Shown in pieces: positions 14,901-45,122 of a DNA stretch of 64,000 bases. Each line of letters starts with the position of its first letter. The first letter of the stretch is position 1. A program made the position numbers and the translations under genes. The DNA is taken from the NCBI RefSeq assembly GCF_055900595.2, contig NZ_CM148325.1; one strand, 5' to 3'. Below the pieces are notes generated by a model, which saw nothing but the letters and a program-made list of their open reading frames with translations, searched no databases and was not told the origin of the DNA.

Positions 14901-14973
14901 CATGATATTTAATCCCACGAGCATGAAACGTGTGAATTCGCTCATCAGGTACAACAAGCAAGAGAGATAAACG

Positions 14974-17340: not shown

Positions 17341-17784
17341 TTGTGGCCATCGCCGCCAGAAAGGTAAGGCTGTGCTGGGCATCATGTCATTACGGTGATG
17401 ATTTCAGGCTGTATTCAGCCAGCTAAAGCACGCAGCAACCGTATGACTATCTGATCTGCAACTCGTTGATGATAAAGTGTTAGACCCCGTGAGGTATATC
17501 TGATTATTGTACAGGATATACGTATCCGCTTAACGAACAAGAGCCTCACTCGCGTCTTTCATCTGGGCCGAATAGATGGGATTCATCATGGTTGTTTATA
17601 GTACCGTCGTCTCTCCCCTTTATTTTTACAGAAAAGCAAACAGAAACCATAAATACCGGCGTTGACATGGCGGGGAAGCCGGCAACGGCTATCCCTACCG
17701 TAATCATAATATTTCTGTCATTTCTGCTCCCTACAATGACGTTAGTTTTACTTCTGGGCGATAACAACGAAAGGAGAGTATGAC

Positions 17785-19128
17785 ATGCACAACTCCAAAA
17801 TCCGGCTGGCTATACTGGTTGGCTGCATGGCTCTGAGCGCCAACCTGTGGGCCAAAGCGCAGCCGGTGCAGGCAACGCTGGCCGGGCATGCAATTCTGCC
17901 GGCAAAATCCGCTGTTTCAACACCGAAGGATGCGCCGGGCGATTTGCAACAGAGCGGCAAATACACCAGCGGCAAACGCGTCACCGAGCTGGGCAGCGTA
18001 GCGGGAAAATCCGCAGAACGCCTGACAGGACTCAGCCTGCCGATCAATGGTCAGCCGTTGCAGGGCCACTCAGGTATCAAACACATGCCCGACGGTACCT
18101 ATTGGGTGCTGACTGACAATGGCTTCGGCAGCAAAGCCAACTCCCCGGACGCCATGCTGTACCTCAACCAATACAAGATAGATTTCAAAGACGGCTCGGT
18201 AGTACCGCTGAAGACGCTGTTCCTGCATGATCCGGATAAAAAGGTGCCGTTCCACATCATCAACGAGAGCACCGAACTACGCTATCTGACCGGCAGCGAT
18301 TTTGATCCGGAAAGCTTCCAGTTTTCCGACGATGCCTTATGGATCGGTGATGAGTTCGGTCCTTACCTGATCAAGACCGACCTGAACGGCAAGGTGCTGG
18401 CGGTGTTCGACACAGAAGTGGACGGTAAGGTGGTTAAATCGCCGGACAACCCGACGCTGACTCTACCTAGCGCTCCGGACGGTAAGCTGAACTTCCAGGT
18501 GGCGCGTTCCAAAGGCTTTGAAGGCATGGCCATCTCGCCGGACGGCAGTAAGCTGTATCCGCTGCTGGAAGGGGCATTGTGGGACGGTGAGCAGTTCGAG
18601 AACGTTGGCGGAAAACGCTACCTGCGTGTGCTGGAGTTCGATGCCAAACAGCAGGCCTGGACTGGTCGCAGCTGGCAGTACGTGCTGGAAGACAACCAGA
18701 ACGCCATCGGCGACTTCAATATGATAGATGATACCCACGGACTGGTGATCGAGCGTGATAACGGCGAAGGCACGGCGGATAAAGCCTGCGTCGCCGGCGC
18801 GCCGACCAACAACTGCTTCAGTCAAGTAGCCAGGTTCAAACGGGTGTATAAAATTGCTTTCTCGGACACTAACGTCGGAAAACCTGTCGAAAAACTGGGC
18901 TATATTGACCTGATGAAGATTCAGGATCCGAACAAGCTGGCACGCAAGCCGCTGAACGACGGTGTGCTGACCTTCCCGTTCTTCACCATCGAGAACGTGG
19001 ATGTGGTTGACACTAACCACATCATCGTAGGCAACGATAATAACTTCCCGTTTTCCTCCAGCCGCTGGCCTAATATGGCGGATGACAACGAGTTTATTCT
19101 ACTGGATGTGAAGGATTTTCTGAAGTAG
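17785..19128 (+). CDS. Secreted phytase-like / esterase-like beta-propeller family protein (tentative)
   Basis: 447 aa with Sec signal peptide (MHNSKIRLAILVGCMALSANLWA); GFEGMAISPDGSKLYPLLEGAL-type blocks; family call is by eye only. Confidence 0.4.
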   Translation: MHNSKIRLAILVGCMALSANLWAKAQPVQATLAGHAILPAKSAVSTPKDAPGDLQQSGKYTSGKRVTELGSVAGKSAERLTGLSLPINGQPLQGHSGIKHMPDGTYWVLTDNGFGSKANSPDAMLYLNQYKIDFKDGSVVPLKTLFLHDPDKKVPFHIINESTELRYLTGSDFDPESFQFSDDALWIGDEFGPYLIKTDLNGKVLAVFDTEVDGKVVKSPDNPTLTLPSAPDGKLNFQVARSKGFEGMAISPDGSKLYPLLEGALWDGEQFENVGGKRYLRVLEFDAKQQAWTGRSWQYVLEDNQNAIGDFNMIDDTHGLVIERDNGEGTADKACVAGAPTNNCFSQVARFKRVYKIAFSDTNVGKPVEKLGYIDLMKIQDPNKLARKPLNDGVLTFPFFTIENVDVVDTNHIIVGNDNNFPFSSSRWPNMADDNEFILLDVKDFLK

Positions 19129-19284
19129 GGGGAAGAGCATCTTACGATACTCCTCGCTAATTTTAAAACGAACGGTGCTGAGCACCGTTTTTAATCACCT
19201 CGCCAGAACCTACCAGAATATGATGTTGGTTTATTATCACTGATTCATGGGGAGCACCCAGCGCTTCGGCGGTTTTTTATGTCT

Positions 19285-20109
19285 TTAAAGCAGTAGCGGT
19301 AGGGTCGCGCTGGCTGTTTTCTGGCTCACCTCGCTGTACTGGTCATCCAGCGCAATCAGCGATGTGGTGAGTAGCTCTACCAACAGCATCACTCCCACTT
19401 TGGCAGTCAGCGCGCCGGCACTCAAGGGTCCTTCCGGTTTGGCCGCGACCAGTTGAATATCACTCAGCGAAGCTAACGGACTGCGCGGTGTATTACTCAG
19501 CGCCAGTACACGCACACCTTGCTTACGCGCTAGTTTTACGACATGCAGCAGATCGCGCGTGGATCCAGAACTGGAAATCGCCACCACGAACGTGTTTTTA
19601 CTAAGTGTTGTGGCGTTCATGGCAGCACGATGCATATCGCTGAACAATTGTGCGGGTTTCCCCAGACGCAGGAGTTTATAATGTAAATACTCCCCCAGAA
19701 TGGCACTGGCTGCTACGCCATAAATCTGCACTGACTGAGCCTGATGCAGTGCAAGCGCGGCTGCTTCCAGCAAGGTTCTGTCGAGTAATTTTGCTGTGTC
19801 CTGTATTGCTTGCACGGATTCATTGACCACATTGTCAATCTCATCACCGCCGTGCTCTACAAACTGTACTTGTCGGAGATCGAGTGCCAGCGCCATTTTG
19901 AATTCGTTATAGCCCTTACACCCAAGCGTTCGGCACAGACGTGTGACGCTAGCCTCGCTGGTGCCGCTTTCACGCGCAAGTTCGGTAATCGTCAGGTAGA
20001 CAACTTTTGCCGGATCGCTAAGTACAAACTCTCCCAGCTTCTGTTGTGTTCGGCTATATCCATCAACGCTCTGGCGCAATCTCAGCAGCAGGTTTTCATT
20101 TTCTGACAT
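19285..20109 (-). CDS. RpiR-family transcriptional regulator (HTH + SIS domain)
   Basis: 274 aa; N-terminal HTH (LTITELARESGTSEASVTRLCRTLGCKGYNEFK) and SIS-like core; divergent from the PTS gene. Confidence 0.8.
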   Translation of the reverse strand: MSENENLLLRLRQSVDGYSRTQQKLGEFVLSDPAKVVYLTITELARESGTSEASVTRLCRTLGCKGYNEFKMALALDLRQVQFVEHGGDEIDNVVNESVQAIQDTAKLLDRTLLEAAALALHQAQSVQIYGVAASAILGEYLHYKLLRLGKPAQLFSDMHRAAMNATTLSKNTFVVAISSSGSTRDLLHVVKLARKQGVRVLALSNTPRSPLASLSDIQLVAAKPEGPLSAGALTAKVGVMLLVELLTTSLIALDDQYSEVSQKTASATLPLLL

Positions 20110-20274
20110 GTAAAATCCTTAATGCGTTTATCTGTTGATAGTGTGACGGAAAGGAGGGGATTGATGCCAGACATTTTAAAAAAGTATGATCGACTTCTTA
20201 GATTTTGATGGTGATTTTTATTTATAAGAATAATTATAGTAAAAATTTTCATCAAAAATCGAGGAGATGATAAA

Positions 20275-21831
20275 ATGATGCAAATGTTTAGCGGCGCTTC
20301 ATCGGGGGGATGGTTTGAAAAAGCGCAGCGGTTCGGAAAATCCTTCATGCTGCCGATTGCGGTATTGCCCGCAGCAGGGCTGTTATTAGGGATTGGTGGC
20401 GCGTTGTCAAATCCAAACACGTTGACGGCTTATCCGTTTTTAGATGCCGACTGGTTGCAGGCAATATTCACAATCATGACCAGCGCAGGTTCTATTGTGT
20501 TTGCCAACCTGTCGGTACTCTTTGCAGTCGGCGTCGCCGTGGGGCTGGCGAAATCGGATAAAGGCACTGCCGGGCTTGCGTCATTGCTGGCGTTTCTGGT
20601 GATGAATGCCACCATCAACGCCTTATTAACGCTCAACGGAACGCTGGCGCACAAGAACCCCGCTTCAGTTGGCCAGGGGATGACGCTTGGTATTCAGACA
20701 CTGGAAACTGGTGTGTTTGGTGGGGTGGTGATTGGTCTCGTCACCTGCACTTTACATAGCCGTTTCAATAAAGTCTCACTACCTCAGTTTCTCGGTTTTT
20801 TTAGTGGTTCTCGTTTTGTACCCATTATCAGCTCCCTTGCCGCGATAGTAGTGGGTGCGGTTATGACGGTGGTGTGGCCGCATTTCCAGAAACTCATTTT
20901 TGGACTGGGCGACCTGGTGGATGCGACGGGCTATCTGGGGACGCTGTTGTACGGCTTCATCCTGCGTATGCTTGGTCCACTGGGTTTACACCATATCTTT
21001 TATTTGCCGTTCTGGACGACGGCGCTGGGCGGCAGTGAAATCGTCAACGGCCAGTTGGTTGAAGGTACGCAGCGGATTTTCTTTGCCCAACTTGCCGATC
21101 CGAATACGCAGCAGTTCTACGCGGGTACCGCTCGCTTTATGTCCGGGCGCTTTATCACCATGATGTTTGGCCTGCTTGGCGCATGTCTGGCAATGTACCA
21201 TACTGCAAAGCCGGAGAATAGAAAGGTTGTCGCCGGACTACTTTTGTCAGCAGCCCTGACCTCTTTCCTGACGGGAATCACTGAGCCTGTTGAGTTCTCC
21301 TTCCTGTTTGTCGCGCCCGTATTATACGTAATTCACGCCTTCTTCGATGGTCTGGCGTTTATGGTCGCCCATATTTTACATATCACTATTGGGCAAACCT
21401 TTTCGGGCGGGCTTATCGATTTCCTTCTCTTCGGCGTGTTGCAGGGGGAAGCTAAAACAAACTGGATGTATGTCCCCATAGTGGGAATACCGTGGTTCTT
21501 CCTTTACTACTTTACTTTCCGCTATTTGATTAACCGCTTTGGCTGGCTGACGCCGGGGCGTGAGAACGTAACCCAGGTTGAATCCGGCCAGCCTCAGAGT
21601 GAACGCGCAGCGGCAGTCATTGCCGGGCTGGGAGGCAAAGAGAATCTGGAAGAGGTGGACTGTTGCGCCACGCGCCTGCGCGTGACGGTTAAAGAGAGCA
21701 GTAAGGTAGATGAAGCTGCGCTGAAAGTGGCCGGAGCGCGTGGCGTGATTATTCGCGGCAACGGCGTTCAGGTGATTTATGGCCCTCATGTCACCATCAT
21801 TAAAAACGAAGTCGAAGAGATTTTATCGTAA
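20275..21831 (+). CDS. PTS EIICB component, glucose/N-acetylglucosamine superfamily
   Basis: 518 aa; EIIC membrane domain plus C-terminal EIIB (...[12 protein letters not shown]...). Confidence 0.8.
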
Positions 21832-22520
21832 TGAAAACTGTACTGGATTCCCTGAAAGGTAAATTAATCGTCTCCTGTCAGGCTCTGGAAAATGAGCCTC
21901 TACATAGTCCGTTTATTATGTCACGTATGGCGCTGGCGGCAGCACAAGGTGGTGCTGCAGGTATCCGTGCCAACAGCGTGGCGGATATTAGTGCTATCAA
22001 AGAGATTGTCTCCCTTCCGATGATAGGGATTATCAAACGCGATTACCCTGGCAGTGAGGTGTTTATCACGGCCACTCTCCGGGAAGTGGATGAGCTGATG
22101 ACCGTTGAGCCGGAAATTATTGCCCTGGATGCTACTGCGCGCCCGCGCCCTAGTGGTCAGACGCTGGAAGAACTGGTCACGCAGATCCGCGCTCGCTACC
22201 CGTCCATACTTCTGATGGCAGATATAGCAACAGTAGAAGAGGCAGTGACAGCTGAACGTCTGGGTTTTGACTGTGTGGGCACTACGCTCTACGGCTATAC
22301 CGCAGAAACTGCTAGGCATGTGCTGGCGGAAAATGACTGTGGATTCTTACGTGAGGTCCTGAAAGCGGTCAGCGTTCCGGTCGTGGCGGAAGGGAATGTC
22401 GACACCCCGGAGTGCGCCGCACGTTGCCTGACATTAGGCGCTCATACCGTGGTGGTTGGGGGGGCAATCACTCGTCCGCAGCAGATAACGACACGCTTTA
22501 TCGCAGCGATCGCCTCGTAA
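21831..22520 (+). CDS. N-acetylmannosamine-6-phosphate 2-epimerase (NanE-like)
   Basis: 229 aa, [48 protein letters not shown]...; start overlaps PTS stop (operon). Confidence 0.8.
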
Positions 22521-22548
22521 AGCACCGATGAGGCATGATATTTTGCTG

Positions 22549-22576
22549 GGAATAAGCGATAATTATCGCTTATTCC
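22549..22576. repeat. Perfect 28-bp palindrome just downstream of the nanE-like gene
   Basis: ggaataagcgataattatcgcttattcc; no T-run follows. Confidence 0.6.
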
Positions 22577-22589
22577 ATATTGAGAGTGC

Positions 22590-22900
22590 TATGCAGTACC
22601 CGATTAGCTCGGCAGGGGCTAAATCATGGTTATCCGGTCATGCTGCGCATGGATAATGGCTCGGAATTTAACACTCTCGCGCTGACACTGGCTGAATGGG
22701 CATAGATACTCGCAGTAAAACGAGAGCTCAGCCAGCCTGGTCGAGTTACCCCTGATAGAGGAATACTGATCCTACCCCATGTAATGTGGACACAAGCCTA
22801 AGTGATGTTCTGGTTTTCAAATTGTTCCGTACTGAGACCACCACACCAGCTGTGCCCTAACAGGCACAGTTTCAGCACTCCTAAGCAACCGTAAAATGGC
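22590..22900 (+). pseudogene. Transposase integrase-core (rve) fragment, IS remnant
   Basis: ...GYPVMLRMDNGSEFNTLALTLAEWA* then shifted frames; DNGSEF block typical of rve-domain transposases. Confidence 0.3.
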
Positions 22901-23024
22901 ACCAGTTTCACAAGCAATTGTGCTCATTATTATTGCTATAACAAAAACCTTTTTTTCTGATGAATGAATTATTAATATAATTCTGATCAAACACCTGTTT
23001 TTTTAACCTACAGAAGGAGTTATT

Positions 23025-23363
23025 ATGAAAAAATACTCTTCTCCCGTCCTTGCACTCATTCTTGTTAGCAGCAGTATGGTATCCTCCGCTGCCACAAAAG
23101 AAATCTCAAAAACAGCTTATGTCTGTAATGGAAATAAGACAATGGAGGTGGTCTATATCAACACCACTGCTGGGAACTCATATGCAGTGATTAATCAGAT
23201 GGATGAGATGATACCTATGCAGCTTATGAAAATGGCCTCCGGAGCCAATTACGAAGCCATCAATAAAAGATACTCATATAAACTGTACACAAAAGGGAAA
23301 AAAGCCAATCTGGTGGAAGGGAATGATAATCCTGTCTTAAGCAACTGTTCATCGGCCGAATGA
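23025..23363 (+). CDS. MliC/PliC-family lysozyme inhibitor-like periplasmic protein
   Basis: 112 aa with signal peptide; ...YVCNGNKTMEVVY...MASGANYEAI...YKLYTKGKKANL...NCS pattern resembles MliC. Confidence 0.55.
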   Translation: MKKYSSPVLALILVSSSMVSSAATKEISKTAYVCNGNKTMEVVYINTTAGNSYAVINQMDEMIPMQLMKMASGANYEAINKRYSYKLYTKGKKANLVEGNDNPVLSNCSSAE

Positions 23364-23436
23364 CAGCCATCGTGCTAACCGTGATATTCTGCTGACTTAA
23401 CCTGTTTACCATTCTGTGTAAATGCCTTTTCTTTAA

Positions 23437-23459
23437 AGTGACCGTCAGGACGGTCACTG
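23437..23459. terminator. Hairpin between convergent genes (possible bidirectional terminator)
   Basis: agtgaccgtc-agga-cggtcact between the MliC-like stop (23363) and the regulator stop (23748). Confidence 0.35.
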
Positions 23460-23747
23460 ATTACCCATTCTGAATTCAGTGCAGAATTAAAATATGTGTG
23501 CAAAATAATTTAATTCAGACAGCTTTTTATTTCACTATGGCTATCCCAGAACAATCAGTACAAATAATAAAAGACATATCACAGCAACACTCCACACTGA
23601 CAGCGCAAAAATAAATGCCGCCTTTGTTATCTTCATATACAAGCAACCTGTCCTGATAATCACCAACTCATGTTTTATTCTTAACCATTCGTCACAAATA
23701 CAACAAAAAATAACAGCAGCAGCACCGATATCACAATATAAGATACA

Positions 23748-33745: not shown

Positions 33746-34252
33746 TATAATACCATATCCGACATTCTCAACATCTTAAGACATCCATGCAGACTGAATG
33801 TTGGTTTCAGTTTTTCACGGTAAGCATGAATCTTTTCTGTTCAAAAGCAGAGCAGATTTACTCTGGAATTATTTTTCTTACTCCGTATTCTGTACAGCAA
33901 AAACTTGTGCTAACTTTACAGCAAACCATCATAATCAGCGTCTGTAGTCCCATCGCTTTACCCCATGAAAGTGAATCCATATGATGTGAGAGAGATAAGT
34001 CATCGTATCCGGTAAACACTGCTTACTATAACATAAGATCATTCAGTCAGTTTTATCTCTGAACTGACGATTATGGCATGCTCATTTATATGGCTCACAG
34101 AGGAGTGTTATTATCCGTAAGCTTTAATCATCAAATCACATGACCATACCAAACTGGCGCTATATCAGCTCATTTGACGCTCATTCCCTTTAGATTTCTT
34201 TATGTGTTTTTTGTTGATAATTAAAATGTAATATAAATTTAATATTTTCAAA

Positions 34253-35476
34253 TCATAAACACCATTTAAAACCATCATCCTGAACATCATACAACAATAT
34301 ATTTTTACTAAAGCATGAATTGTATACTTCTATTAATTCAGGAAAATTATCAGGATTCACCTTTAAATTCAACTGAATGTTACACTTAATTTCACTCAGC
34401 AGTTCTTCATGCGTGGATTTTATTATCCCTTTATCATAATCTATAAATACACACATGTTTTTCATGAATTCAAACCCTTTTCCTGTATACAGTTTGATGA
34501 ATGCCACAAGAGCAAACATTTCAAGATGCAGCCATAATGCCACGTGAGTTTTTCGCAAAGTATAAAAAATTGAATTCGCCACTTTTTTACTTATTGCTCT
34601 TTTGTACTGTGAGTGCGCCAGATTCAGTAGTGGCAATTCTCTCTCGATAAATGAAAGTGAAAAAGACGGGTAAATTGATGTCGGAAATATTTCAGGTCTT
34701 ATGATATTTTCGATTTCCACCATAAATCTATCCATAGAACGAAAATCATTTTCTTTTTTTATTCTGGTATAGAGACCGCCTTTATTCCTTACTGCGACTT
34801 TTTTTCGTGCTATCCCCCCCAACATTTCCTCTAATTGTTTATTTATCTTCGTATCATTAAATACAACCATTCTTCTTATCATCCTGGGAAGGATGATAAT
34901 ATCAGAGCTTGAATCACTTGAACGGCAATTATTATTGATCCATGCAACTTCAAGTTGAAGTATCGGAACATTAAATTCTCTGGGGTTAATAACTCTCTGA
35001 TATTGTTTTTTGTATGCGTTTTCATTAAGATATTCTCTGCTGTAGAGAAACTTATAGCAATATAATCTGACAATATCCTTTATGTAAGATTTAAATGAGT
35101 CACCTGTAACAGATATATTTTTTCTTCTCAGTAACTCCTGTGTATTGAGCCATTCCCGTGACCGGAGTACTCCATTATGAAGACTTTTTCTTACTTGCTT
35201 TGAATTGCGCAATTGATGTAATATTTTTGCGTCCTCAACAATTCTCTTTCCCGTTTGATTTCTTGCAGCATCTATTACTCTGTCAAATATCTCCCGGTCC
35301 AGACTTTTGTCATATTTACTGATTATACGACAAATATTCCTGACCCGACGGTTCTCTTTATTTCGTTTCCATAACTGATAATGATCATCACATAACCTCA
35401 GGGCATTTGCCTCATCAAATTCTGAAACAGGATTGCTGCATTTTTTATTCCGACAGATACCTTTGTTTTTAGCCAT
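34253..35476 (-). CDS. Hypothetical protein, AT-rich orphan ORF (407 aa), function unknown
   Basis: Long ORF with RBS gggaagaagag upstream of ATG; K/N/I-rich; N-terminal Cys-rich stretch GICRNKKCSNP...LCDDHYQ; no family recognised by eye. Confidence 0.6.
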   Translation of the reverse strand: MAKNKGICRNKKCSNPVSEFDEANALRLCDDHYQLWKRNKENRRVRNICRIISKYDKSLDREIFDRVIDAARNQTGKRIVEDAKILHQLRNSKQVRKSLHNGVLRSREWLNTQELLRRKNISVTGDSFKSYIKDIVRLYCYKFLYSREYLNENAYKKQYQRVINPREFNVPILQLEVAWINNNCRSSDSSSDIIILPRMIRRMVVFNDTKINKQLEEMLGGIARKKVAVRNKGGLYTRIKKENDFRSMDRFMVEIENIIRPEIFPTSIYPSFSLSFIERELPLLNLAHSQYKRAISKKVANSIFYTLRKTHVALWLHLEMFALVAFIKLYTGKGFEFMKNMCVFIDYDKGIIKSTHEELLSEIKCNIQLNLKVNPDNFPELIEVYNSCFSKNILLYDVQDDGFKWCL

Positions 35477-35576
35477 ACTCTTCTTCCCGTCAATGGAAAA
35501 ATTTTCACGTCCATATTACCTGACTGAGAGGCCGGATTAATGTGATCCGGTTCAGTGAAATCAACAGGATAACGGT

Positions 35577-36461
35577 ATGTCATTCAGCCATTCTTCCCTC
35601 TCCGCACACGTAAAGTCACATCTGACCTTTCTTCCTGAAGAAATTCGCCAGAAAATCCTTGAACATCTTCGCAGCGTCATTCAGTACGAACCCGTTATTG
35701 GCATTATGGGTAAATCCGGTGCCGGAAAAAGCAGCCTGTGCAATGCCATTTTTCAGTCCCGTGTCTGCGCCACGCATCCGCTGAACGGCTGCACCCGTCA
35801 GGCTCATCGTCTTACCTTTCAGCCCGGTGAACGAAGAATGACGCTGGTCGATCTGCCCGGCACTGGCGAAACACCACAGCATGATCAGGAATACCGGGCA
35901 CTTTACAGTCAGTTACTGCCCGAACTGGATCTGATTATCTGGATCCTGCGGGCTGATGAACGTGCGTATGCTGCCGACATCGCCATGCATCAGTTTTTAC
36001 TGAATGAAGGTGCCGATCCCTCGCGTTTTCTGTTTGTTCTCAGCCATGCCGATCGCATCCACCCGGCTGAAGAATGGAACAACCAGAGCAGCACGCCATC
36101 CCGTCAGCAGGAACTCTCACTGGCGACGGTGACAGCCCGGGTGGCAACCCTGTTCCCTTCATCATTTCCGGTACTCCCCATAGCCGCTCCTGCCGGCTGG
36201 AATCTTCCGGCATTTGTGTCTCTGATGATCCACGCCCTGCCACCACAGGCAACCAGCGCGGTTTATTCGCATATCCGGAATGAAAAGCGCACTGCGCAGG
36301 ATCAGCAACACGCACAGCAGGCTTTTGGTGACGCCATCGGCCAGAGTTTTGACGCTGCCATTGCCCGGTTCAGCTTTCCGGCCTGGATGCTGCAGCTTCT
36401 GCGCAAAGCCCGTGATCGCATTATCCGCCTGCTGATCACACTGTGGGATCGCCTGTTCTGA
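35577..36461 (+). CDS. YeeP/YkfA/YfjP-family GTPase
   Basis: 294 aa; P-loop GIMGKSGAGKSSLCNAI, DLPGTGE switch region. Confidence 0.8.
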   Translation: MSFSHSSLSAHVKSHLTFLPEEIRQKILEHLRSVIQYEPVIGIMGKSGAGKSSLCNAIFQSRVCATHPLNGCTRQAHRLTFQPGERRMTLVDLPGTGETPQHDQEYRALYSQLLPELDLIIWILRADERAYAADIAMHQFLLNEGADPSRFLFVLSHADRIHPAEEWNNQSSTPSRQQELSLATVTARVATLFPSSFPVLPIAAPAGWNLPAFVSLMIHALPPQATSAVYSHIRNEKRTAQDQQHAQQAFGDAIGQSFDAAIARFSFPAWMLQLLRKARDRIIRLLITLWDRLF

Positions 36462-36646
36462 ATGTCCCCGCTTTTTGACCGGCCCCGGCGATAACCAGGA
36501 AACGCATTTCCGGTTGCGTCACCACAATGCTGAAGGGCTTCGGTAAACCCTCATTCATTTCATCCATCAGGCCGCGTCTTCTCCGTGAGACGCGGCTTTT
36601 TCATTGATTACGTCATTCAGTCTTAACCACTGATAAGGAGCAAAGT

Positions 36647-37465
36647 ATGCGATTAGCCAGTCGTTTTGGTTATGCGAACCAGATACGCCGTGACCGTCCG
36701 CTGACCCGTGAAGAGCTGATGCACCATGTGCCCGGGATTTTCGGGGAAGATAAACACACCTCCCGGAGCCGGAACTATACATACATCCCCACCATCACCG
36801 TGCTGGAAAGCCTGCAGCGGGAAGGCTTTCAGCCATTCTTCGCCTGCCAGACCCGCGTACGTGACCCGGGCCGCCGGGGGTATACCAAACACATGCTGCG
36901 TCTGCGCCGTGACGGGGAGATAAACGGACAACATGTCCCTGAAATTATTCTGCTCAACTCTCATGACGGTACCTCCAGCTACCAGATGCTGCCGGGTTAC
37001 TTCAGGTTCGTCTGCCAGAACGGATGCGTCTGCGGTCAGTCTCTGGGGGAAGTGCGTGTTCCGCACCGGGGAAATGTGGTGGACAGAGTCATTGAAGGGG
37101 CTTACGAGGTGGTGGGCGTGTTTGACCGGATAGAGGAGAAGCGTGATGCCATGCAGTCGCTGGTCCTGCCGCCACCGGCACGCCAGGCGCTGGCACAGGC
37201 GGCACTGACTTACCGTTATGGTGACGAACATCAGCCCGTCACCACCGCCGACATTCTGACACCACGACGCCGGGAGGATTACGGTAAGGACCTGTGGAGT
37301 GCTTATCAGACCATCCAGGAGAATATGCTGAAAGGCGGGATTTCCGGTCGCAGTGCAAAAGGAAAACGTATCCATACCCGGGCCATTCACAGCATTGATA
37401 CCGATATAAAACTCAACCGCGCATTGTGGGTGATGGCAGAAACGCTGCTTGAGAGCATGCGCTGA
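36647..37465 (+). CDS. DUF932-family protein (YfjQ/YafZ-like)
   Basis: 272 aa, MRLASRFGYANQIRRDRPLTREELMHHVPGIFGEDKHTSRSRNYTYIPT...; position after the GTPase gene as in CP4-type islands. Confidence 0.65.
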   Translation: MRLASRFGYANQIRRDRPLTREELMHHVPGIFGEDKHTSRSRNYTYIPTITVLESLQREGFQPFFACQTRVRDPGRRGYTKHMLRLRRDGEINGQHVPEIILLNSHDGTSSYQMLPGYFRFVCQNGCVCGQSLGEVRVPHRGNVVDRVIEGAYEVVGVFDRIEEKRDAMQSLVLPPPARQALAQAALTYRYGDEHQPVTTADILTPRRREDYGKDLWSAYQTIQENMLKGGISGRSAKGKRIHTRAIHSIDTDIKLNRALWVMAETLLESMR

Positions 37466-37546
37466 TGCCGTTTCCCTGAGTGAGGGAATCATTCAGCTTT
37501 CGTTCCTGAAAAACACACATTTATTTGTTATTTAAGGCGTTATCTC

Positions 37547-38026
37547 ATGAAAACCGTTTCTCAGAATACCCCCACAATTTATTCAGCTACAACACCAGAG
37601 AATAATCCGCCTCAGTTGGTTGCCAGCCTCGTCCCTGATGAACAGCGCATCAGCTTCTGGCCGCAGCATTTTGGCCTCATTCCACAGTGGGTGACCCTGG
37701 AGCCCCGTGTCTTCGGCTGGATGGACCGTCTGTGCGAAGACTACTGCGGTGGTATCTGGAATCTGTACACCCTGAACAACGGCGGGGCATTTATGGCCCC
37801 CGAACCGGATGATGATGATGACGAAACATGGGTACTGTTCAATGCCATGAACGGTAACCGCGCTGAAATGAGCCCGGAAGCCGCCGGCATTGCTGCCTGT
37901 CTGATGACGTACAGTCATCACGCCTGCCGTACGGAGTGTTATGCCATGACGGTTCATTATTACCGTCTGCGGGATTACGCCCTGCAGCATCCGGAATGCA
38001 GCGCCATTATGCGCATCATTGACTGA
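37547..38026 (+). CDS. Antirestriction protein (KlcA/ArdB-like, YfjX/YeeS-context)
   Basis: 159 aa; ...WVTLEPRVFGWMDRLCEDYCGGIWNLYTLNNGGAFMAPEPDDDDDETW... Confidence 0.65.
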   Translation: MKTVSQNTPTIYSATTPENNPPQLVASLVPDEQRISFWPQHFGLIPQWVTLEPRVFGWMDRLCEDYCGGIWNLYTLNNGGAFMAPEPDDDDDETWVLFNAMNGNRAEMSPEAAGIAACLMTYSHHACRTECYAMTVHYYRLRDYALQHPECSAIMRIID

Positions 38027-38041
38027 AAGGGGGCCGGAACA

Positions 38042-38518
38042 ATGCAACAGATTTCCTTTCTGCCCGGAGAAATGACAACCAGAGAGCGCAGCCTCATTCA
38101 GCGGGCCCTGAAAGCCCTGGACCGCCATCTTCATGAACCCGGCGTGGTCTTCACCTCCACGCATGCGGCACGGGAATGGCTGATTCTGAACATGGCGGGA
38201 CTGGAGCGTGAAGAATTCCGGGTGCTGTATCTGAACAACCAGAATCAGCTGATTGCCGGTGAAACCCTCTTCACCGGCACCATCAACCGCACGGAAGTCC
38301 ATCCCCGGGAAGTGATTAAACGCGCCCTGTACCACAATGCCGCTGCCGTGGTGCTGGCACACAATCACCCGTCCGGTGAAGTCACACCCAGTAAGGCAGA
38401 CCGCCTTATTACGGAACGTCTGGTACAGGCGCTGGCCCTGGTGGATATCCGGGTGCCGGACCATCTGATAGTCGGTGGCAGCCAGGTTTTCTCCTTTGCC
38501 GAACATGGTCTGCTTTAA
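38042..38518 (+). CDS. RadC-like JAB-domain protein
   Basis: 158 aa; JAMM-type motif ...AAAVVLAHNHPSGEVTPSKADRLITERL... Confidence 0.8.
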   Translation: MQQISFLPGEMTTRERSLIQRALKALDRHLHEPGVVFTSTHAAREWLILNMAGLEREEFRVLYLNNQNQLIAGETLFTGTINRTEVHPREVIKRALYHNAAAVVLAHNHPSGEVTPSKADRLITERLVQALALVDIRVPDHLIVGGSQVFSFAEHGLL

Positions 38519-38580
38519 CCCGTCACAACCACATCACACCTGTTTTCACTTTTATCTTCTGTCTTCAGAGGTATCCCATT

Positions 38581-38802
38581 ATGAAAATCATCACCCGTGG
38601 TGAAGCCATGCGTATTCACCAACAGCATCCTGCATCCCGTCTTTTTCCGTTCTGTACCGGCAAATACCGCTGGCACGGCAGCACTGAAACGTATACCGGT
38701 CGTGAAGTGCAGGATATTCCCGGTGTGCTGGCTGTGTTTGCAGAACGTCGTAAGGACAGTTTTGGCCCGTATGTCCGGCTGATGAGCGTCACCCTGAACT
38801 GA
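38581..38802 (+). CDS. DUF987-family small protein (YeeT/YkfH-like)
   Basis: 73 aa, MKIITRGEAMRIHQQHPASRLFPFCTGKYRWHGSTETYTGREVQDIPGV...; sits where yeeT/ykfH sits upstream of the toxin-antitoxin pair. Confidence 0.6.
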   Translation: MKIITRGEAMRIHQQHPASRLFPFCTGKYRWHGSTETYTGREVQDIPGVLAVFAERRKDSFGPYVRLMSVTLN

Positions 38803-38816
38803 GTCAGGGCATTCTG

Positions 38817-39449
38817 ATGAGCAGAATTATCACCATCACAGTGTATACGCTGGATGAACTTTCCTGCCCGGCACGGGAAAAAGCCCGCGACGGGTACCGT
38901 CAGCATCATGCTGACAGCAACTGGTATGAAAACGTGTATGAAGACTTCAGGGAGGTCTGTGGCATTTTCGGAATTGACCTCCGCCAGCGCGTTTTCCGGC
39001 TCAGCAACGGCAGGTTTATGGAGGAGCCGAGCATCTGGTTCAGCGGATTCTGCAGCCAGGGACGGAGCCTGTTTTGAAGGACGCTGGCACTGGCAGTCAG
39101 CAACAACCAGGAGAGTCCGGGAGTATGCCCCGCAGAACCGTGAGCTTCATCGTATCGCGGATGCCCTGCAGGCGGTGCAGAAACGTAACTTCTGGCAACT
39201 GCAGGCTGAAATCCACCACCGGGGACGTTACTGCCATCCGTTATCACTGTTACCCGGAACAGTCCGACTGGTCAGGCTATGACAGCCGATGCGGAAGCCG
39301 CTGTCAGCGAAGCCCTGCGCGACCTGGCCTTCTGGCTGTACCGTCAACTGGAAAACGAGTACGACCAGATGACCTCAGACGCCGCTGTGGATGAGGCCAT
39401 TCTCATCAATGCATACATCTTCACCGAAACCGGTCAGCGCACCGGCTGA
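38817..39449 (+). pseudogene. Hypothetical gene broken into three overlapping frames (apparent +1/-1 frameshift pair)
   Basis: Frame 0 MSRIITITVYTLDELSCPAREKARDGYRQHHADSNWYENVYEDF...FCSQG; frame +1 ...DGACFEGRWHWQSATTRRVREYAPQNRELHRIADALQAVQKRNFWQLQAEIHHRG...; frame 0 MTADAEAAVSEALRDLAFWLYRQLENEYDQMTSDAAVDEAILINAYIFTETGQRTG*. Confidence 0.4.
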
Positions 39450-39498
39450 CCTGTCATCGTTAAACCATTCTTAACCACTTTTCAGAGAGGATTTTATC

Positions 39499-39867
39499 GT
39501 GTCAGACACACTCTCCGGGATAACTCATCCCGACGACAATCACGACCGCCCCTGGTGGGGGCTTCCCTGCACAGTGAGGCCCTGTTTTGGCGCCCGTCTG
39601 GTGCAGGAGGGTAACCGCCTGCATTACCTTGCCGACCGCGCCGGCATCAGAGGCCGGTTCAGCGATGCGGATGCATACCATCTGGACCAGGCCTTTCCGC
39701 TGCTGATGAAACAACTGGAACTCATGCTCACCAGCGGTGAACTGAATCCCCGCCATCAGCATACCGTCACGCTGTATGCAAAAGGGCTGACCTGCGAAGC
39801 CGACACCCTCGGCAGTTGTGGTTACGTTTATCTGGCTGTTTATCCGACGCCCGAAACGAAAAAGTAA
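39499..39867 (+). CDS. cbeA: CbeA/YeeU-family type IV antitoxin
   Basis: 122 aa, MSDTLSGITHPDDNHDRPWWGLPCTVRPCFGARLVQEGNRLHYLADRAGIRG... Confidence 0.85.
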   Translation: MSDTLSGITHPDDNHDRPWWGLPCTVRPCFGARLVQEGNRLHYLADRAGIRGRFSDADAYHLDQAFPLLMKQLELMLTSGELNPRHQHTVTLYAKGLTCEADTLGSCGYVYLAVYPTPETKK

Positions 39868-39957
39868 ACCACCGGAATAACCTTCTGCTCCGGCCAGGTG
39901 TTTTCACCACGCCACTCTCCCCATAATTTAATCTCTCATATCAGGAAAATCTTCAGT

Positions 39958-40368
39958 ATGAAATTATTACCCGACACACATGTACGGGAGGCATCGTGCT
40001 GCCCGTCTCCCGTCACCATCTGGCAGACACTGCTCATCCGTCTGCTGGACCAGCACTATGGCCTCACACTGAATGACACACCGTTCGCTGATGAACGTGT
40101 GATTGAGCAGCATATTGAGGCCGGCATTTCACTGTGCGATGCGGTGAACTTTCTCGTTGAAAAATACGCACTGGTACGTACCGACCAGCCGGGATTCAGC
40201 GCAGGAGCCCCGTCGCAGTTAATCAACAGCATCGATATTCTCCGGGCCCGCCGGGCAACAGGCCTGATGACACGTAATAACTACAGAATGGTAAATAACA
40301 TTACCCTGGGTAGCATCCGGGGGCGAAACGATGAAACTTTCCCTGACGCTGGAAGCCGACAGCATTAA
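39958..40368 (+). CDS. cbtA: CbtA/YeeV-family type IV toxin
   Basis: [82 protein letters not shown]...; start taken at internal ATG 39958. Confidence 0.85.
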
Positions 40369-40753
40369 CGTGCAGGCACTGAACATGGGGCGCATTGTCG
40401 TTGACATTGATGGTGTAAATCTCGCTGAACTGATTAACAAGGTCGCTGAATACGGTTATTCACTCCGCGTGGTGGATGAACGTGACGCTACCGAAACACC
40501 GGCGACTTCTGCCAGCTCTCATCAGTTGCCGGAAGACAATACAGTGATACAGAGCGTGATGCCATTAACCACTGAAACAGCGCTGGATATCCTCATTGCG
40601 TGGCTGCAGGACAATATCGACTGCGGGTCCGGAATTATTTTCGACAACGATGAGGATAAAACGGATTCGGCAGCACTGCTGCCCTGTATTGAACAGGCCA
40701 GGGAGGATATCCGTACCCTGCACCAACTGCAACTTCTGCACCAGAACCGGTGA
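40331..40753 (+). CDS. YeeW-like protein downstream of the toxin gene
   Basis: 140-aa ORF overlapping the cbtA 3' end; assigned by position only. Confidence 0.45.
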
Positions 40754-40837
40754 ATCTCACTCACCAGACTTCATTCTCCTGACGCCAGCCTGAACAGAGC
40801 TGGCGTTTTCGTTTATAAACAGAAAGGAAACCCCATA

Positions 40838-41623
40838 ATGTCATATATCACAATCCCCCACCCGAACGCGGTCAACGGACATACAGCCGTTATCTGTTCC
40901 ACAAGTATCAGACACATCCTGGCTGTACGAAAGAGTACACTGCTGCAAATCGACACGCTTATCCGGCAACTGACAGAAATCTCAGCACTGACGGAAAGTA
41001 TTGGCGGTAAAGCCGCCCCGGACTGGGCGATGAAACAGAATTTTCGCTGTGGTTGCTGGCTGATGGAGAAACCAGAAACAGCAATGAAAGCCATTACCCG
41101 GAATCTTGACCGCGAAATCTGGCGTAACCTGATGCAGCGTTCCGGGATGCTTTCCTTAATGGATGCACAGGCACGTGATACATGGTACAGGTCACTGGAA
41201 TATGATAATTTTCCGGAAATCAGTGAAGCGAACATTCTGAGCACATTTGAACAACTGCACCAGAATAAGGATGAAGTGTTTGAGCGGGGGGTGATCAACC
41301 TCTTCAAAGGGCTGAGCTGGGATTACAAAACCAACTCACCCTGTAAATTTGGCAGTAAAATTATCGTCAACAATCTGGTGAGGTGGGACCAGTGGGGATT
41401 TCATCTTATCAGTGGAATGCAGGCAGATCGCCTGGCTGACCTGGAAAGAATGTTGCATCTGCTCAGCGGTAAACCGATCCCCGACAACCGGGGAATATCA
41501 CCATTAATCTGGATGACCACATACAGTCCGTTCAGGGTAAAGGACGCTATGAAGATGAGATGTTCATCATTAAATACTTTAAGAAGGGAGCTGCACACAT
41601 CACTTTCAAAAGGCTGGAGCTGA
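40838..41623 (+). CDS. DUF4942-like hypothetical protein
   Basis: 261-aa ORF; family assignment tentative, no search run. Confidence 0.45.
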   Translation: MSYITIPHPNAVNGHTAVICSTSIRHILAVRKSTLLQIDTLIRQLTEISALTESIGGKAAPDWAMKQNFRCGCWLMEKPETAMKAITRNLDREIWRNLMQRSGMLSLMDAQARDTWYRSLEYDNFPEISEANILSTFEQLHQNKDEVFERGVINLFKGLSWDYKTNSPCKFGSKIIVNNLVRWDQWGFHLISGMQADRLADLERMLHLLSGKPIPDNRGISPLIWMTTYSPFRVKDAMKMRCSSLNTLRRELHTSLSKGWS

Positions 41624-41788
41624 TTGACAGAATTAACGATATAATAGCCAGGCACTTTCCTTCTGTGCTCTCAGCCTGACCCCGAGTTTGATTCCCTTTC
41701 GATATCAAAAGGGACTGCGGGTACAAAAGAGGGTACATCTTTCACCAAACCAAACAAAATAAACCAATATCAACATGATAGAAGCATT

Positions 41789-41811
41789 CTTCGATTCCGA
41801 GTCCGGCACCA
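41789..41811 (+). repeat. tRNA-Phe 3'-end remnant (island attachment-site direct repeat)
   Basis: cttcgattccgagtccggcacca matches the 3' end of tRNA-Phe (GGTTCGATTCCGAGTCCGGGCACCA) with one G missing; no full tRNA present. Confidence 0.6.
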
Positions 41812-41822
41812 AATTCATATAA

Positions 41823-41848
41823 ACGGACCTCCACGGAGGTCCGTTTTT
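41823..41848 (+). terminator. Intrinsic terminator following the tRNA-Phe remnant
   Basis: acggacctcc-acg-ggaggtccgt followed by TTTTT. Confidence 0.6.
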
Positions 41849-43207
41849 CGTTTCAGGACGCCATGTGATTTAAGCGTTCTGCCTTCAAATCATTTCTAAC
41901 AATCTCAACCAAATTTTCCCTAATCGCCAGCATGTTACGGGTATACCCCAGCTCTGGGAAATTTATCCCTAAGCTATGAATGACTCTCACGAAATGTCGT
42001 GCGGCTGCGTGATGCAGTTGAAAATCAAATGATGTCATCAAGAGCTTAACGGTATCGTTGCCGATGACATATATAAAGCACAACCTCGGGCAGAACGCCG
42101 ACTGATGAGATTTTCTGAATGAGAACAAAGAGTAATGTCTCAGTTCGTTTGCTCATGCAAAGACTAATAATCCATGAAAATAGTAAGTGCTCTGAGAAAT
42201 TTTCCATGGATTATTTTCTGAACATTTTTCTTTGGCAAAGATGATGAATTTTGATGATAAGGAATATTACTTCTGGTTCTCAGTAAACTCCTTTCGTAAT
42301 ACTATGTAATCAAGAAGTTTATGGCGGGTAAAAATAACGTCTTACATTCACCAACAATATGTAAATAAACCCATCTATAGATGGTAAAAATAGGTCATGG
42401 CAATTATCATTGAACCATTCCCTTTTCGAATGAGTTTCTATTATGCAACAACCTGTAGTTCGCGTTGGCGAATGGCTTGTTACTCCGTCCATAAACCAAA
42501 TTAGCCGCAATGGGCGTCAACTTACCCTTGAGCCGAGATTAATCGATCTTCTGGTTTTCTTTGCTCAACACAGTGGCGAAGTACTTAGCAGGGATGAACT
42601 TATCGATAATGTCTGGAAGAGAAGTATTGTCACCAATCACGTTGTGACGCAGAGTATCTCAGAACTACGTAAGTCATTAAAAGATAATGATGAAGATAGT
42701 CCTGTCTATATCGCTACTGTACCAAAGCGCGGCTATAAATTAATGGTGCCGGTTATCTGGTACAGCGAAGAAGAGGGAGAGGAAATAATGCTATCTTCGC
42801 CTCCCCCTATACCAGAGGCGGTTCCTGACACAGATTCTCCCTCCCAAAGTCTTAACATTCAAAACACCGCAACACCACCTGAACAATCCCCAGTTAAAAG
42901 CAAACGATTCACTACCTTTTGGGTATGGTTTTTTTTCCTGTTGTCGTTAGGTATCTGTGTAGCACTGGTAGCGTTTTCAAGTCTTGATACACGTCTTCCT
43001 ATGAGCAAATCGCGTATTTTGCTCAATCCACGCGATATTGACATTAATATGGTAAATAAAAGTTGTAACAGCTGGAGTTCCCCGTATCAGCTCTCTTACG
43101 CGATAGGCGTGGGTGATTTGGTGGCGACATCACTTAACACCTTCTCCACCTTGGTGATGCTGCCAACTTACTGATTTAGTGTATGATGGTGTTTTTGAGG
43201 TGCTCCA

Positions 43208-43483
43208 GTGGCTTCTGTTTCTATCAGCTGTCCCTCCTGTTCAGCTACTGACGGGGTGGTGCGTAACGGCAAAAGCACCGCCGGACATCAGCGCTATCTC
43301 TGCTCTCACTGCCGTAAAACATGGCAACTGCAGTTCACTTACACCGCTTCTCAACCCGGTACGCACCAGAAAATCATTGATATGGCCATGAATGGCGTTG
43401 GATGCCGGGCAACTGCCCGCATTATGGGCGTTGGCCTCAACACGATTTTACGTCACTTAAAAAACTCAGGCCGCAGTCGGTAA
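43208..43483 (+). CDS. insA: IS1 InsA
   Basis: [91 protein letters not shown]. Confidence 0.9.
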
Positions 43484-43905
43484 CCTCGCGCATACAGCCG
43501 GGCAGTGACGTCATCGTCTGTGCGGAAATGGACGAACAGTGGGGCTATGTCGGGGCTAAATCGCGCCAGCGCTGGCTGTTTTACGCGTATGACAGGCTCC
43601 GGAAGACGGTTGTTGCGCACGTATTCGGTGAACGCACTATGGCGACGCTGGGGCGTCTTATGAGCCTGCTGTCACCCTTTGACGTGGTGATATGGATGAC
43701 GGATGGCTGGCCGCTGTATGAATCCCGCCTGAAGGGAAAGCTGCACGTAATCAGCAAGCGATATACGCAGCGAATTGAGCGGCATAACCTGAATCTGAGG
43801 CAGCACCTGGCACGGCTGGGACGGAAGTCGCTGTCGTTCTCAAAATCGGTGGAGCTGCATGACAAAGTCATCGGGCATTATCTGAACATAAAACACTATC
43901 AATAA
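43402..43905 (+). CDS. insB: IS1 InsB frame (expressed as InsAB' by -1 frameshift)
   Basis: ...[71 protein letters not shown]... Confidence 0.8.
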
Positions 43906-45122
43906 GTTGGAGTCATTACCCTCCACCTTTATGGTGCATGACAAAATCAACTACAACATTGATGAACCGAGCAGTTCCGGTAAAACATTATCTATTGCGT
44001 TTGTTAATCAGCGCCAATACCGTGCTCAACAATGCTTTATGTCGGTAAAATTGGTAGACAATGCAGATGGTTCAACCATGCTGGATAAACGTTATGTCAT
44101 CACTAACGGTAATCAGCTGGCGATTCAAAATGATTTACTGGAGAGTTTATCAAAAGCGTTAAACCAACCGTGGCCACAACGAATGCAGGAGATGCTCCAG
44201 CAAATTTTGCCTCATCGTGGTGCGTTATTAACTAATTTTTATCAGGCACATGATTATTTACTGCATGGCGATGATAAATCATTGAACCGTGCCAGTGAAT
44301 TACTAGGTGAGATTGTTCAATCATCCCCCGAATTTACCTACGCGAGAGCAGAAAAAGCATTAGTTGATATCGTGCGCCATTCTCAACATCCTTTAGATGA
44401 AAAACAATTAGCAGCACTGAATACAGAAATAGATAACATTGTTACACTGCCGGAATTGAACAACCTGTCCATTATATATCAAATAAAAGCGGTCAGTGCT
44501 CTGGTAAAAGGTAAAACAGATGAGTCTTACCAGGCGATAAATACTGGCATTGATCTTGAAATGTCCTGGCTAAATTATGTGTTGCTTGGCAAGGTTTATG
44601 AAATGAAGGGGATGAACCGGGAAGCAGCTGATGCATATCTCACCGCCTTTAATTTACGCCCAGGGGCAAACACCCTTTACTGGATTGAAAATGGTATATT
44701 CCAGACTTCTGTTCCTTATGTTGTACCTTATCTCGACAAATTTCTCGCCTCAGAATAAGTGACTCCCGGGTTGACTCATGCTCGGGAATATTTGTTGTTG
44801 ATTTTTTGTATGTTATTGTTGGTATAATATGTTGCGGCAATTTATTTGCCGCATAATTTTTATCACATAAATTTAACCATGGAATATTCTGCAATCTATT
44901 GTAAACATTGAATGTTTATCTTTTCATGATATCAACTTGCGATCCTGATGTGTTAATAAAAAACCTCAAGTTCTCACTTACAGAAACTTTTGTGTTATTT
45001 CACCTAATCTTTAGGATTAATCTTTTTTTTTGAGTAATCTTGTCGCCAGTTTGGTCTGGTCAGTAAATAGTTACGCATCATGACCCGGACTCCAAATTCA
45101 AAAATGAAATTAGGAGAAGAGC

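What the first reader, a model, noticed from the sequence alone, without database searches (positions are those of the whole stretch)
41789..41848. tRNA-Phe 3' remnant plus terminator marks the island junction next to cadC
A 23-nt match to the tRNA-Phe 3' end (one G missing), followed by a strong terminator hairpin, lies immediately after the CP4-57-like module and about 600 bp before cadC, the native neighbourhood of pheU in K-12 as I recall. No full tRNA and no integrase occur anywhere in the window, so either the integrase-proximal end lies beyond the window start or the left part of the island has been rearranged by the many IS elements. AlpA at 30710-30946 would normally sit near the integrase.
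Basis: partly seen in the sequence, partly recalled or inferred. Interest (0 to 1): 0.45.

Follow-up and report, generated by a model that had tools for sequence, protein, structure and literature searches.

The report
Right end of pheU genomic island
This is the ordinary, already-described right-hand attachment scar (a 22-base copy of the end of the phenylalanine tRNA gene) of a roughly 56-kb mobile genomic island inserted at pheU beside cadC in an E. coli chromosome.

Summary
Window 41790-41811 (TTCGATTCCGAGTCCGGCACCA) is the last 23 nt of E. coli tRNA-Phe minus one G. It is unique in the window, with 0 matches expected by chance. An 11-bp hairpin plus T-run follows at 41821-41851, and cadC starts at 42443.

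Homology to the K-12 pheU-cadC spacer begins exactly at 41790. An island-free strain of the window's own lineage (Z0117EC0005) has intact pheU abutting the same flank.

The DNA to the left is the right 41.8 kb of a genomic island. It is 99.99% identical over window 1-23711, and 100% over 21711-25062, to the island in chicken isolate GPEC389. There, intact pheU and a 420-aa P4-type integrase lie 14.8 kb beyond window position 1.

The exact G-deleted repeat is published as the common attR of E. coli pheV/pheU islands. This is therefore a known kind of junction.

Two refinements:
- The hairpin is element-borne, not native. The "empty" pheU flank (terminator, integrase leader, integrase C-terminal pseudogene at about 42008-42174, K-12 yjdQ) is the fossil left arm of an older P4-type island. 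"No integrase in the window" is therefore not strictly true.
- The G deletion always sits in attR. This places strand exchange in the last 7 nt (GGCACCA).

Interest is low.

The parts
1..41789 (.). Right-hand 41.8 kb of a pheU-integrated genomic island, mosaic and IS-rich. Contents include an S6-peptidase autotransporter, transporters, a YadA-like adhesin, an AlpA/YfjJ block, and a yee-type module (GTPase, DUF932, antirestriction, JAB, DUF987, CbeA/CbtA, DUF957, DUF4942).
   Evidence: 99.99% identical over window 1-23711, 100% over 21711-25062 and 99.3% over 26373-43152 to GPEC389 (NZ_CM142810.1), where it lies between pheU+int and cadC. Absent from lineage mates Z0117EC0005 and AST85.
40838..41684 (+). 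DUF4942-family gene (frameshifted), the last gene of the island.
   Evidence: ORF 40838-41623. The GPEC389 and TUM9803 annotation is 'DUF4942 domain-containing protein, frameshifted'.
41754..41789 (+). Island-side arm (P arm) next to the core, ...CAACATGATAGAAGCATTC.
   Evidence: 33 of 36 identical to the arm preceding the attR of the APEC O1 pheV island, and also present in TUM9803, GPEC389 and E400634.
41790..41811 (+). attR core: a 22-nt direct repeat of the tRNA-Phe 3' end with one G of GGG missing.
   Evidence: Identical to the published attR TTCGATTCCGAGTCCGG-CACCA (PMC11537424 Table 1).
41821..41851 (+). Intrinsic-terminator-like hairpin plus T-run. It belongs to the fossil left arm of an older P4-type element.
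   Evidence: -18.4 kcal/mol, z -5.3; terminator scan. The same hairpin follows intact tRNA-Phe at the attL of GPEC389 (pheU) and APEC O1 (pheV), but is absent after K-12 pheV.
41812..41995 (+). Fossil integrase leader and start-codon region.
   Evidence: 41790-41911 is 91% identical (112/123) to GPEC389 attL. The alignment shows a remnant of ATGGCACTGACTGACG at about 41975-41992.
42008..42174 (+). Fossil integrase 3' end, the equivalent of K-12 pseudogene yjdQ. It is frameshifted and carries a stop codon.
   Evidence: tblastn of the GPEC389 integrase: aa 367-391 hit 42033-42107 and aa 397-418 hit 42109-42174. blastn gives 69% over 42008-42300. PGAP labels the equivalent as an integrase pseudogene; K-12 yjdQ.
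42443..44758 (+). cadC, interrupted by IS1.
   Evidence: Collinear with K-12 and Z0117EC0005 cadC except for the 768-bp insert at 43153-43920.
43153..43920 (.). IS1 copy inside cadC with a 9-bp target duplication, CTCCACCTT.
   Evidence: length, inverted ends GGTGATGCTGCCAACTTA / GGTAATGACTCCAACTTA, duplication. Absent in all compared strains.
30710..30946 (-). AlpA-family small DNA-binding protein gene inside the island.
   Evidence: Pfam Phage_AlpA PF05930, E 2.6e-10. Weak excisionase-domain hit in NCBIfam.

Best explanation
Window 41790-41811 is the attR core of a roughly 56-kb genomic island that a P4-type tyrosine integrase inserted into the 3' end of the pheU tRNA-Phe gene.

Integration recombines the element's attP, which carries a copy of the tRNA 3' end with GG instead of GGG, with the tRNA gene. 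The product has intact pheU followed by the element's own terminator hairpin and its integrase gene at the left end (attL). That end lies outside the window, about 14.8 kb left of position 1 by synteny. The G-deleted 22-nt copy ends up at the right end (attR).

The G deletion is found in attR and never in the tRNA. This holds at both pheU and pheV and for unrelated elements. Strand exchange must therefore occur to the right of the G run, within the last 7 nt (GGCACCA). This step is inferred.

The DNA to the right of attR (hairpin, integrase leader, integrase C-terminal remnant) is not virgin chromosome. It is the fossil left arm of an older P4-type element and is present in about 95% of complete E. 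coli genomes (K-12 yjdQ). In island-free strains its hairpin serves as the pheU terminator. Here it is positioned to stop read-through from the island towards cadC (inferred).

The island is recent in this lineage. It is practically identical to the island of an unrelated chicken isolate, while the chromosome to the right is identical to a lineage whose other members have an empty or differently occupied pheU.
For: - The match is exact, unique and non-random.
- Homology with K-12 starts exactly at 41790.
- The empty site in the same lineage (Z0117EC0005, AST85) has pheU with GGG followed directly by the window's flank. Identity to Z0117EC0005 is 99.9% over 41812-43152, and only 3 differences occur over about 6.6 kb once IS1 is removed.
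- GPEC389 has the same island with pheU at 4333367-4333442 and the integrase at 4333640-4334902. The island is 55,350 bp from the tRNA end to the attR end.
- The window differs from GPEC389 at no position from 39500 to 41863, then at 87 positions in 41864-42415. To the right of that the window is 97.6% identical to GPEC389 but about 100% identical to its own lineage.
- The APEC O1 pheV island has attL = pheV plus the same hairpin, and attR = the same P arm plus the G-deleted repeat plus the native pheV terminator.
- A different element, the 20-kb MobQ element of E600003, also leaves a G-deleted repeat and supplies its own hairpin with a compensatory C-G to G-C change.
- The published attR is identical (PMC11537424). 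A 22-bp repeat with a 1-nt shift is reported at pheU and pheV (PMC6174562).
- About 18% of complete E. coli genomes (983 of 5426) have a DUF4942-type island end joined to cadC across this junction.
Against: - The window's own left end is not available. Intact pheU and an intact integrase are shown only in the closest relative, not in this genome.
- No complete genome in the collection combines this backbone with this island; the best hit across the junction is 95.9%.
- No excision or integration activity was tested.
- The crossover position is an inference from the distribution of one indel.
- The 74 nt from 41790 to 41863 contain no site that distinguishes donor from recipient, so the exact exchange point in this strain cannot be seen.
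Confidence: 0.93

Rival explanations
1. Same structure, different route. The island, with its ready-made attR, entered this lineage by RecA-dependent homologous recombination of a larger donor fragment, not by integrase action at the core. The repeat was inherited rather than made here.
For: The element's left arm and the resident fossil arm share about 120 nt at 91% identity, including 74 identical nt. This is enough for rare homologous exchange. The interval 41790-41863 has no informative sites. From my own knowledge, E. coli islands are known to spread with flanking DNA.
Against: The right exchange point must lie within the 74 nt 41790-41863, which begin with the 22-nt core. The strongly diverged fossil region from 41864 onward is already recipient-type. 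A homologous exchange would more probably resolve in the kilobases of 97-98% identical cad DNA. The one candidate 'donor' SNP (G at 41843) is explained by ancestry: at the other two sites where the window differs from its relatives, it also keeps the ancestral state.
Confidence: 0.12
2. The 22-mer is all that is left of pheU in this genome. The tRNA gene and the integrase end were deleted or rearranged by the many IS elements, so the island is now an immobile remnant without attL.
For: There is no tRNA and no intact integrase in 41.8 kb of island. Several IS copies lie in the island.
Against: The G-deleted repeat preceded by the conserved P arm is the standard attR, not a truncated gene. The window is collinear with GPEC389 from position 1, where the island continues to int and pheU. 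The only difference is one IS insertion.
Confidence: 0.04
3. Chance similarity to a tRNA 3' end, or a decayed duplicate tRNA gene.
For: None beyond the short length of the match.
Against: 0 matches are expected by chance. The match boundary coincides exactly with the synteny breakpoint against K-12 and lineage mates. There is no similarity to the tRNA upstream of the T-arm. The identical repeat is found at the attR of many islands.
Confidence: 0.01

Closest known systems
GI-pheV islands of E. coli with the 23-bp imperfect attR TTCGATTCCGAGTCCGG-CACCA (PMC11537424; e.g. APEC O1, S88, ED1a, H10407, 55989)
   Same: Identical attR core including the missing G. Homologous island-side arm. A yee/DUF4942 right-end module. 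A P4-type integrase next to the tRNA, with the same hairpin after the tRNA at attL.
   Different: Integrated at the other tRNA-Phe gene (pheU rather than pheV). The right flank is therefore the pheU-cadC spacer (a fossil integrase arm) rather than the native pheV terminator. The cargo also differs.
pheU-associated insertions in LEE-negative STEC (PMC6174562)
   Same: Same site. A 22-bp terminal repeat of the tRNA with a one-base shift relative to K-12. Cargo of the same kind (phosphoethanolamine transferases, antirestriction KlcA, type IV toxin-antitoxin).
   Different: Different strains and island contents. That paper does not analyse the flank as a fossil element arm.
K-12 pseudogene yjdQ between pheU and cadC
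   Same: The window's 41864-42174 is the collinear equivalent, with the same internal deletions relative to an intact integrase.
   Different: The window-lineage allele differs by roughly 20%, including a 16-bp indel. In K-12 it follows the intact tRNA; here it follows the 22-nt repeat.
Phage P4 / CP4-57-type tRNA-3'-end integration (from my own knowledge of the family)
   Same: A tyrosine integrase gene adjacent to the target tRNA or tmRNA gene. attP carries the gene's 3' end so that the gene is restored. An AlpA-family regulator is present.
   Different: No phage structural genes. alpA is not next to int, about 43 kb away in GPEC389. The element is a mosaic cargo island.

Membership tests
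tRNA-Phe-integrated P4-integrase genomic island (GI-pheU/GI-pheV): attR junction | The distal end carries a direct repeat of the 3' end of the tRNA-Phe gene. | tested here: met
   22 of 23 nt at 41790-41811, unique in the window, and identical to the published attR.
tRNA-Phe-integrated P4-integrase genomic island (GI-pheU/GI-pheV): attR junction | An island-free relative has the tRNA gene directly joined to the flank that follows the repeat (empty site). | tested here: met
   Z0117EC0005 and AST85, of the same lineage: pheU then the flank, 99.9% over 41812-43152 for Z0117EC0005. K-12 also shows this.
tRNA-Phe-integrated P4-integrase genomic island (GI-pheU/GI-pheV): attR junction | Intact tRNA-Phe gene and adjacent tyrosine integrase at the proximal end of the same island. 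| tested here: inconclusive
   This lies outside the window. It is met in GPEC389, which is 99.99% identical to window 1-23711 and 100% identical over 21711-25062: pheU and a 420-aa integrase lie 14.8 kb left of window position 1. It is not verifiable for the source genome.
tRNA-Phe-integrated P4-integrase genomic island (GI-pheU/GI-pheV): attR junction | The island-side arm and right-end module are shared with other members. | tested here: met
   P arm 33 of 36 identical to APEC O1 pheV attR. DUF4942/yee module present.
tRNA-Phe-integrated P4-integrase genomic island (GI-pheU/GI-pheV): attR junction | Integrase-dependent excision and integration at these repeats. | not testable with these tools
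   Needs PCR for attP/attB or recombination assays.
tRNA gene or pseudogene | Cloverleaf detectable by ARAGORN or Rfam. | tested here: not met
   0 tRNAs and no Rfam tRNA hit. Only the last 22 nt are present.
Intrinsic (Rho-independent) terminator | GC-rich hairpin followed by a T-run, more stable than shuffles. | tested here: met
   11-bp stem, -18.4 kcal/mol, z -5.3. A compensatory pair change in the homologous hairpin of the E600003 element supports selection on the stem. Termination activity was not tested.
CP4-57 prophage organisation | alpA adjacent to the integrase gene. | tested here: not met
   The AlpA-family gene at 30710-30946 is about 43 kb from the integrase in the intact GPEC389 island.

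The most novel reading that the evidence does not exclude
The pheU-cadC spacer present in about 95% of complete E. coli genomes, including the hairpin that terminates pheU and part of the DNA upstream of cadC, is the fossil left arm of an ancient P4-type element. Incoming phe-tRNA elements carry a homologous arm, so pheU offers them about 75-120 nt of extended homology beyond the 22-nt core. This could favour pheU as a target, permit RecA-dependent loss of islands, and repeatedly overwrite the fossil. That would explain why the window-lineage allele of the fossil is about 20% diverged while the flanks differ by 2-3%.
Probability: 0.3. Interest if true: 0.3.

Novelty: already known. Interest (0 to 1): 0.1.

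Why it matters
It fixes the right boundary of the island to the base (41811/41812). It shows the island is a recent import into this lineage and that it probably retains both attachment sites, so it may still be mobilisable. Beyond that it is a textbook tRNA-associated island junction. The exact repeat, missing G included, is already tabulated for E. coli pheV islands and noted for pheU. Two refinements are useful for annotation but are not surprising: the terminator and flank are a fossil element arm, and the crossover is confined to the last 7 nt.

Tried and rejected
1. **Donor tract beyond the core.** The window has G at 41843, where six lineage relatives have T. This suggested homologous-recombination entry or gene conversion. 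I rejected it as evidence: at the two other sites where the window differs from those relatives (44224, 44857) it also carries the ancestral K-12/GPEC389 state, so the window strain is simply a sister of that clade.
2. **Tandem or composite island with an internal att copy.** No second copy of the core exists in the window (up to 3 mismatches) or in the GPEC389 left part, apart from the tRNA itself.
3. **Window not E. coli.** The low 93-96% identity across the junction suggested this at first. It was rejected: the low identity is confined to the fossil-integrase allele, and eight E. coli genomes match the backbone at 99.9-100%.
4. **Base composition as a boundary marker.** GC is mosaic (0.40-0.55) on both sides and is not informative.
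5. **Minus-strand ORF 41853-42128 (91 aa).** It lies antisense to the integrase fossil, no evidence supports a gene, and I did not pursue it.
6. **Literature search for yjdQ.** No paper in the library mentions it.
7. **NCBIfam naming of island proteins.** This gave little beyond a GTPase, an autotransporter barrel and a weak excisionase domain.

Full report
**Observation**

Window 41790-41811 reads TTCGATTCCGAGTCCGGCACCA. Against K-12 pheU (NC_000913 4362551-4362626) this is the last 23 nt of the tRNA-Phe gene with one G of the GGG run missing (alignments). The 22-mer occurs once in the window even with 3 mismatches allowed, and none is expected from shuffles.

Ten bases downstream lies an 11-bp-stem hairpin (41821-41846) followed by TTCGTTT. 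Its energy is -18.4 kcal/mol, z = -5.3 against shuffles, and the terminator scan also picks it up. The cadC ATG is at 42443. ARAGORN and Rfam find no tRNA in the window.

**What the junction is**

In K-12 the order, read in the direction of cadC, is dicD - pheU - yjdQ (pseudogene) - cadC - cadB - cadA. The window becomes collinear with K-12 exactly at 41790 and stays so into cadC. To the left of 41790 there is no similarity.

The window's chromosome to the right of the junction is about 100% identical to a group of eight complete E. coli genomes. Six of them were inspected:
- Two (Z0117EC0005, AST85) have an empty site. Intact pheU is followed immediately by the window's flank. With IS1 removed, the window differs from Z0117EC0005 at only three positions over about 6.6 kb, besides the missing G.
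- The other four carry different insertions at pheU. E600003 has a 20-kb MobQ-relaxase element. E400634, 100117 and E200086 have islands ending in DUF4942 plus EAL genes. All four end in a G-deleted repeat.

**The island**

Window 1-23711 is 99.99% identical, and 21711-25062 is 100% identical, to chicken isolate GPEC389. Window 26373-43152 is 99.3% identical. Within the island, the window has one extra 1310-bp IS at 25063-26372. A 768-bp IS1 also sits outside the island, inside cadC.

In GPEC389 the island continues 14.8 kb to the left of window position 1. It ends at an intact 420-aa tyrosine integrase (4333640-4334902) and intact tRNA-Phe (4333367-4333442), preceded by dicD and dsbD. From the tRNA end to the attR end the island is 55,350 bp, so the window's copy would be about 56.7 kb.

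Neither the window nor the GPEC389 left part holds a second core copy.

Between window and GPEC389 there is no difference from 39500 to 41863. There are then 87 differences in 41864-42415, and only 97.6% identity further right. The DNA is therefore donor-identical up to the junction and lineage-identical after it. The switch falls somewhere in 41790-41863, which contains the core and no informative site. This is the signature of a recently imported island whose right boundary is this repeat.

No genome in the collection combines this backbone with this island; the best hit across the junction is 95.9%. The left end of the source genome can therefore only be inferred.

**The hairpin and flank are a fossil element arm**

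In GPEC389 the sequence after intact pheU (attL) is the same hairpin plus about 70 nt of leader and then the integrase gene. The window's 41790-41911 matches it at 112/123.

The APEC O1 pheV island has the same hairpin after pheV at attL. Its attR is the same island-side arm (33 of 36 identical), then the G-deleted repeat, then the native pheV terminator seen in K-12. The hairpin is therefore supplied by the element, not by the chromosome.

The E600003 element supplies a related hairpin with a compensatory C-G to G-C pair change. This argues for selection on the stem.

Consequently the "empty" pheU flank is itself a relic:
- hairpin;
- leader;
- a remnant of the integrase start (about 41975-41992);
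- an internal deletion;
- the integrase 3' end. aa 367-418 hit 42033-42174 with a frameshift and a stop codon, and DNA similarity runs to about 42300.

PGAP annotates the equivalent as a partial integrase pseudogene, and K-12 calls it yjdQ. 5183 of 5426 genomes carry this flank joined to cadC.

**Mechanism**

*Shown:*
- the structures of attL, attR and the empty site;
- the partition of the indel, with GGG always in the tRNA (attL and empty sites) and GG always in attR. This holds at both pheU and pheV, and for two unrelated elements.

*Inferred:*
- The element's attP carries the GG version.
- Strand exchange by the P4-type tyrosine integrase takes place to the right of the indel, within the 7 nt GGCACCA shared by both partners. 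This is the canonical size of a tyrosine-recombinase overlap region (my knowledge of the family).
- Excision would regenerate GGG in pheU and GG in attP. The missing G would then be a heritable feature of the element rather than decay.
- The hairpin at 41821-41851 now follows only the 22-nt repeat. It is positioned to stop read-through from the DUF4942 gene into the cadC regulatory region.

**Comparison with what is known**

The exact attR string, with the gap, is listed for APEC O1, S88, ED1a, H10407, 12009, CB9615, 55989 and others in the 2024 study of GI-pheV (PMC11537424). That study also describes the yee module and the intP4 integrase types.

A 2018 study of pheU, pheV and selC insertions reports a 22-bp terminal repeat at pheU and pheV with a one-base shift relative to K-12 (PMC6174562).

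About 18% of complete E. coli genomes (983 of 5426) show a DUF4942-type island end joined to cadC across this junction. The finding is therefore an already-known kind of junction in a new strain.

- The AlpA-family assignment is correct (Pfam PF05930, E 2.6e-10). In the intact GPEC389 island that gene lies about 43 kb from the integrase, so its position does not indicate a lost integrase.
- "No integrase anywhere" holds for intact genes only.

**Checked and dismissed**

The G at 41843, where lineage relatives have T, looked like a donor tract extending past the core. At the other two sites where the window differs from those relatives, the window also has the ancestral state. The simplest reading is that the T is derived in the sister clade.

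**Verdict**

- Observation: confirmed.
- Interpretation: supported, with minor corrections.
- Novelty: already known.
- Interest: low.

Noticed in passing
window 43153-43920 (within cadC 42443-44758): A 768-bp IS1 with a 9-bp target duplication (CTCCACCTT) interrupts cadC. All compared strains, including the same-lineage genomes, have intact cadC. This predicts loss of Cad-system induction in this strain.
   Followed up: partly
window 25063-26372: A 1310-bp IS3-family element (ends TGAACCGCCCCGG..., 3-bp duplication GTC, ALIL frameshift pseudoknot at 25398-25514) is inserted in the YadA-like adhesin gene. It is absent from GPEC389. From memory it looks like IS629.
   Followed up: partly
window 41864-42092: The window-lineage allele of the fossil integrase region differs from the K-12/GPEC389 allele by roughly 20%, including a 16-bp indel at 42052-42067, while the surrounding backbone differs by 2-3%. 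Both alleles share the same internal deletions. Only 73 of 5420 records are at least 95% identical to the window type over 41812-43152. The cause is unknown; introgression or conversion from incoming element arms are possibilities.
   Followed up: no
window 60222-60246: melB is missing, so yjdF abuts melA. The same arrangement is found in lineage mate Z0117EC0005, so this is a lineage trait. GPEC389 has melB.
   Followed up: partly
window 1-41789 versus 43921-64000: The island is 99.3-100% identical to that of chicken isolate GPEC389, whose backbone is only 97.6% identical. The window's backbone is about 100% identical to eight genomes, seven from humans and one from a dog, none of which carry this island. 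This indicates recent horizontal transfer between lineages.
   Followed up: yes
window 1118-4942 (-): A 1274-aa S6-family peptidase autotransporter (SPATE-like) gene lies in the island. The specific SPATE was not identified.
   Followed up: no
L010 27516-29021 and L006 5960-6010 (E. coli E600003): A different roughly 20-kb pheU element (416-aa integrase, cytosine methyltransferase, DUF262/AAA genes, MobQ relaxase) also ends in a G-deleted 20-nt repeat. It brings its own post-tRNA hairpin with a compensatory stem change.
   Followed up: partly
window 41843: The hairpin position is G here, as in K-12 and GPEC389, but T in six same-lineage genomes. The T shortens the stem to 7 pairs and lengthens the T-run. 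It was shown to be a derived change in the sister clade, not a recombination signal.
   Followed up: yes
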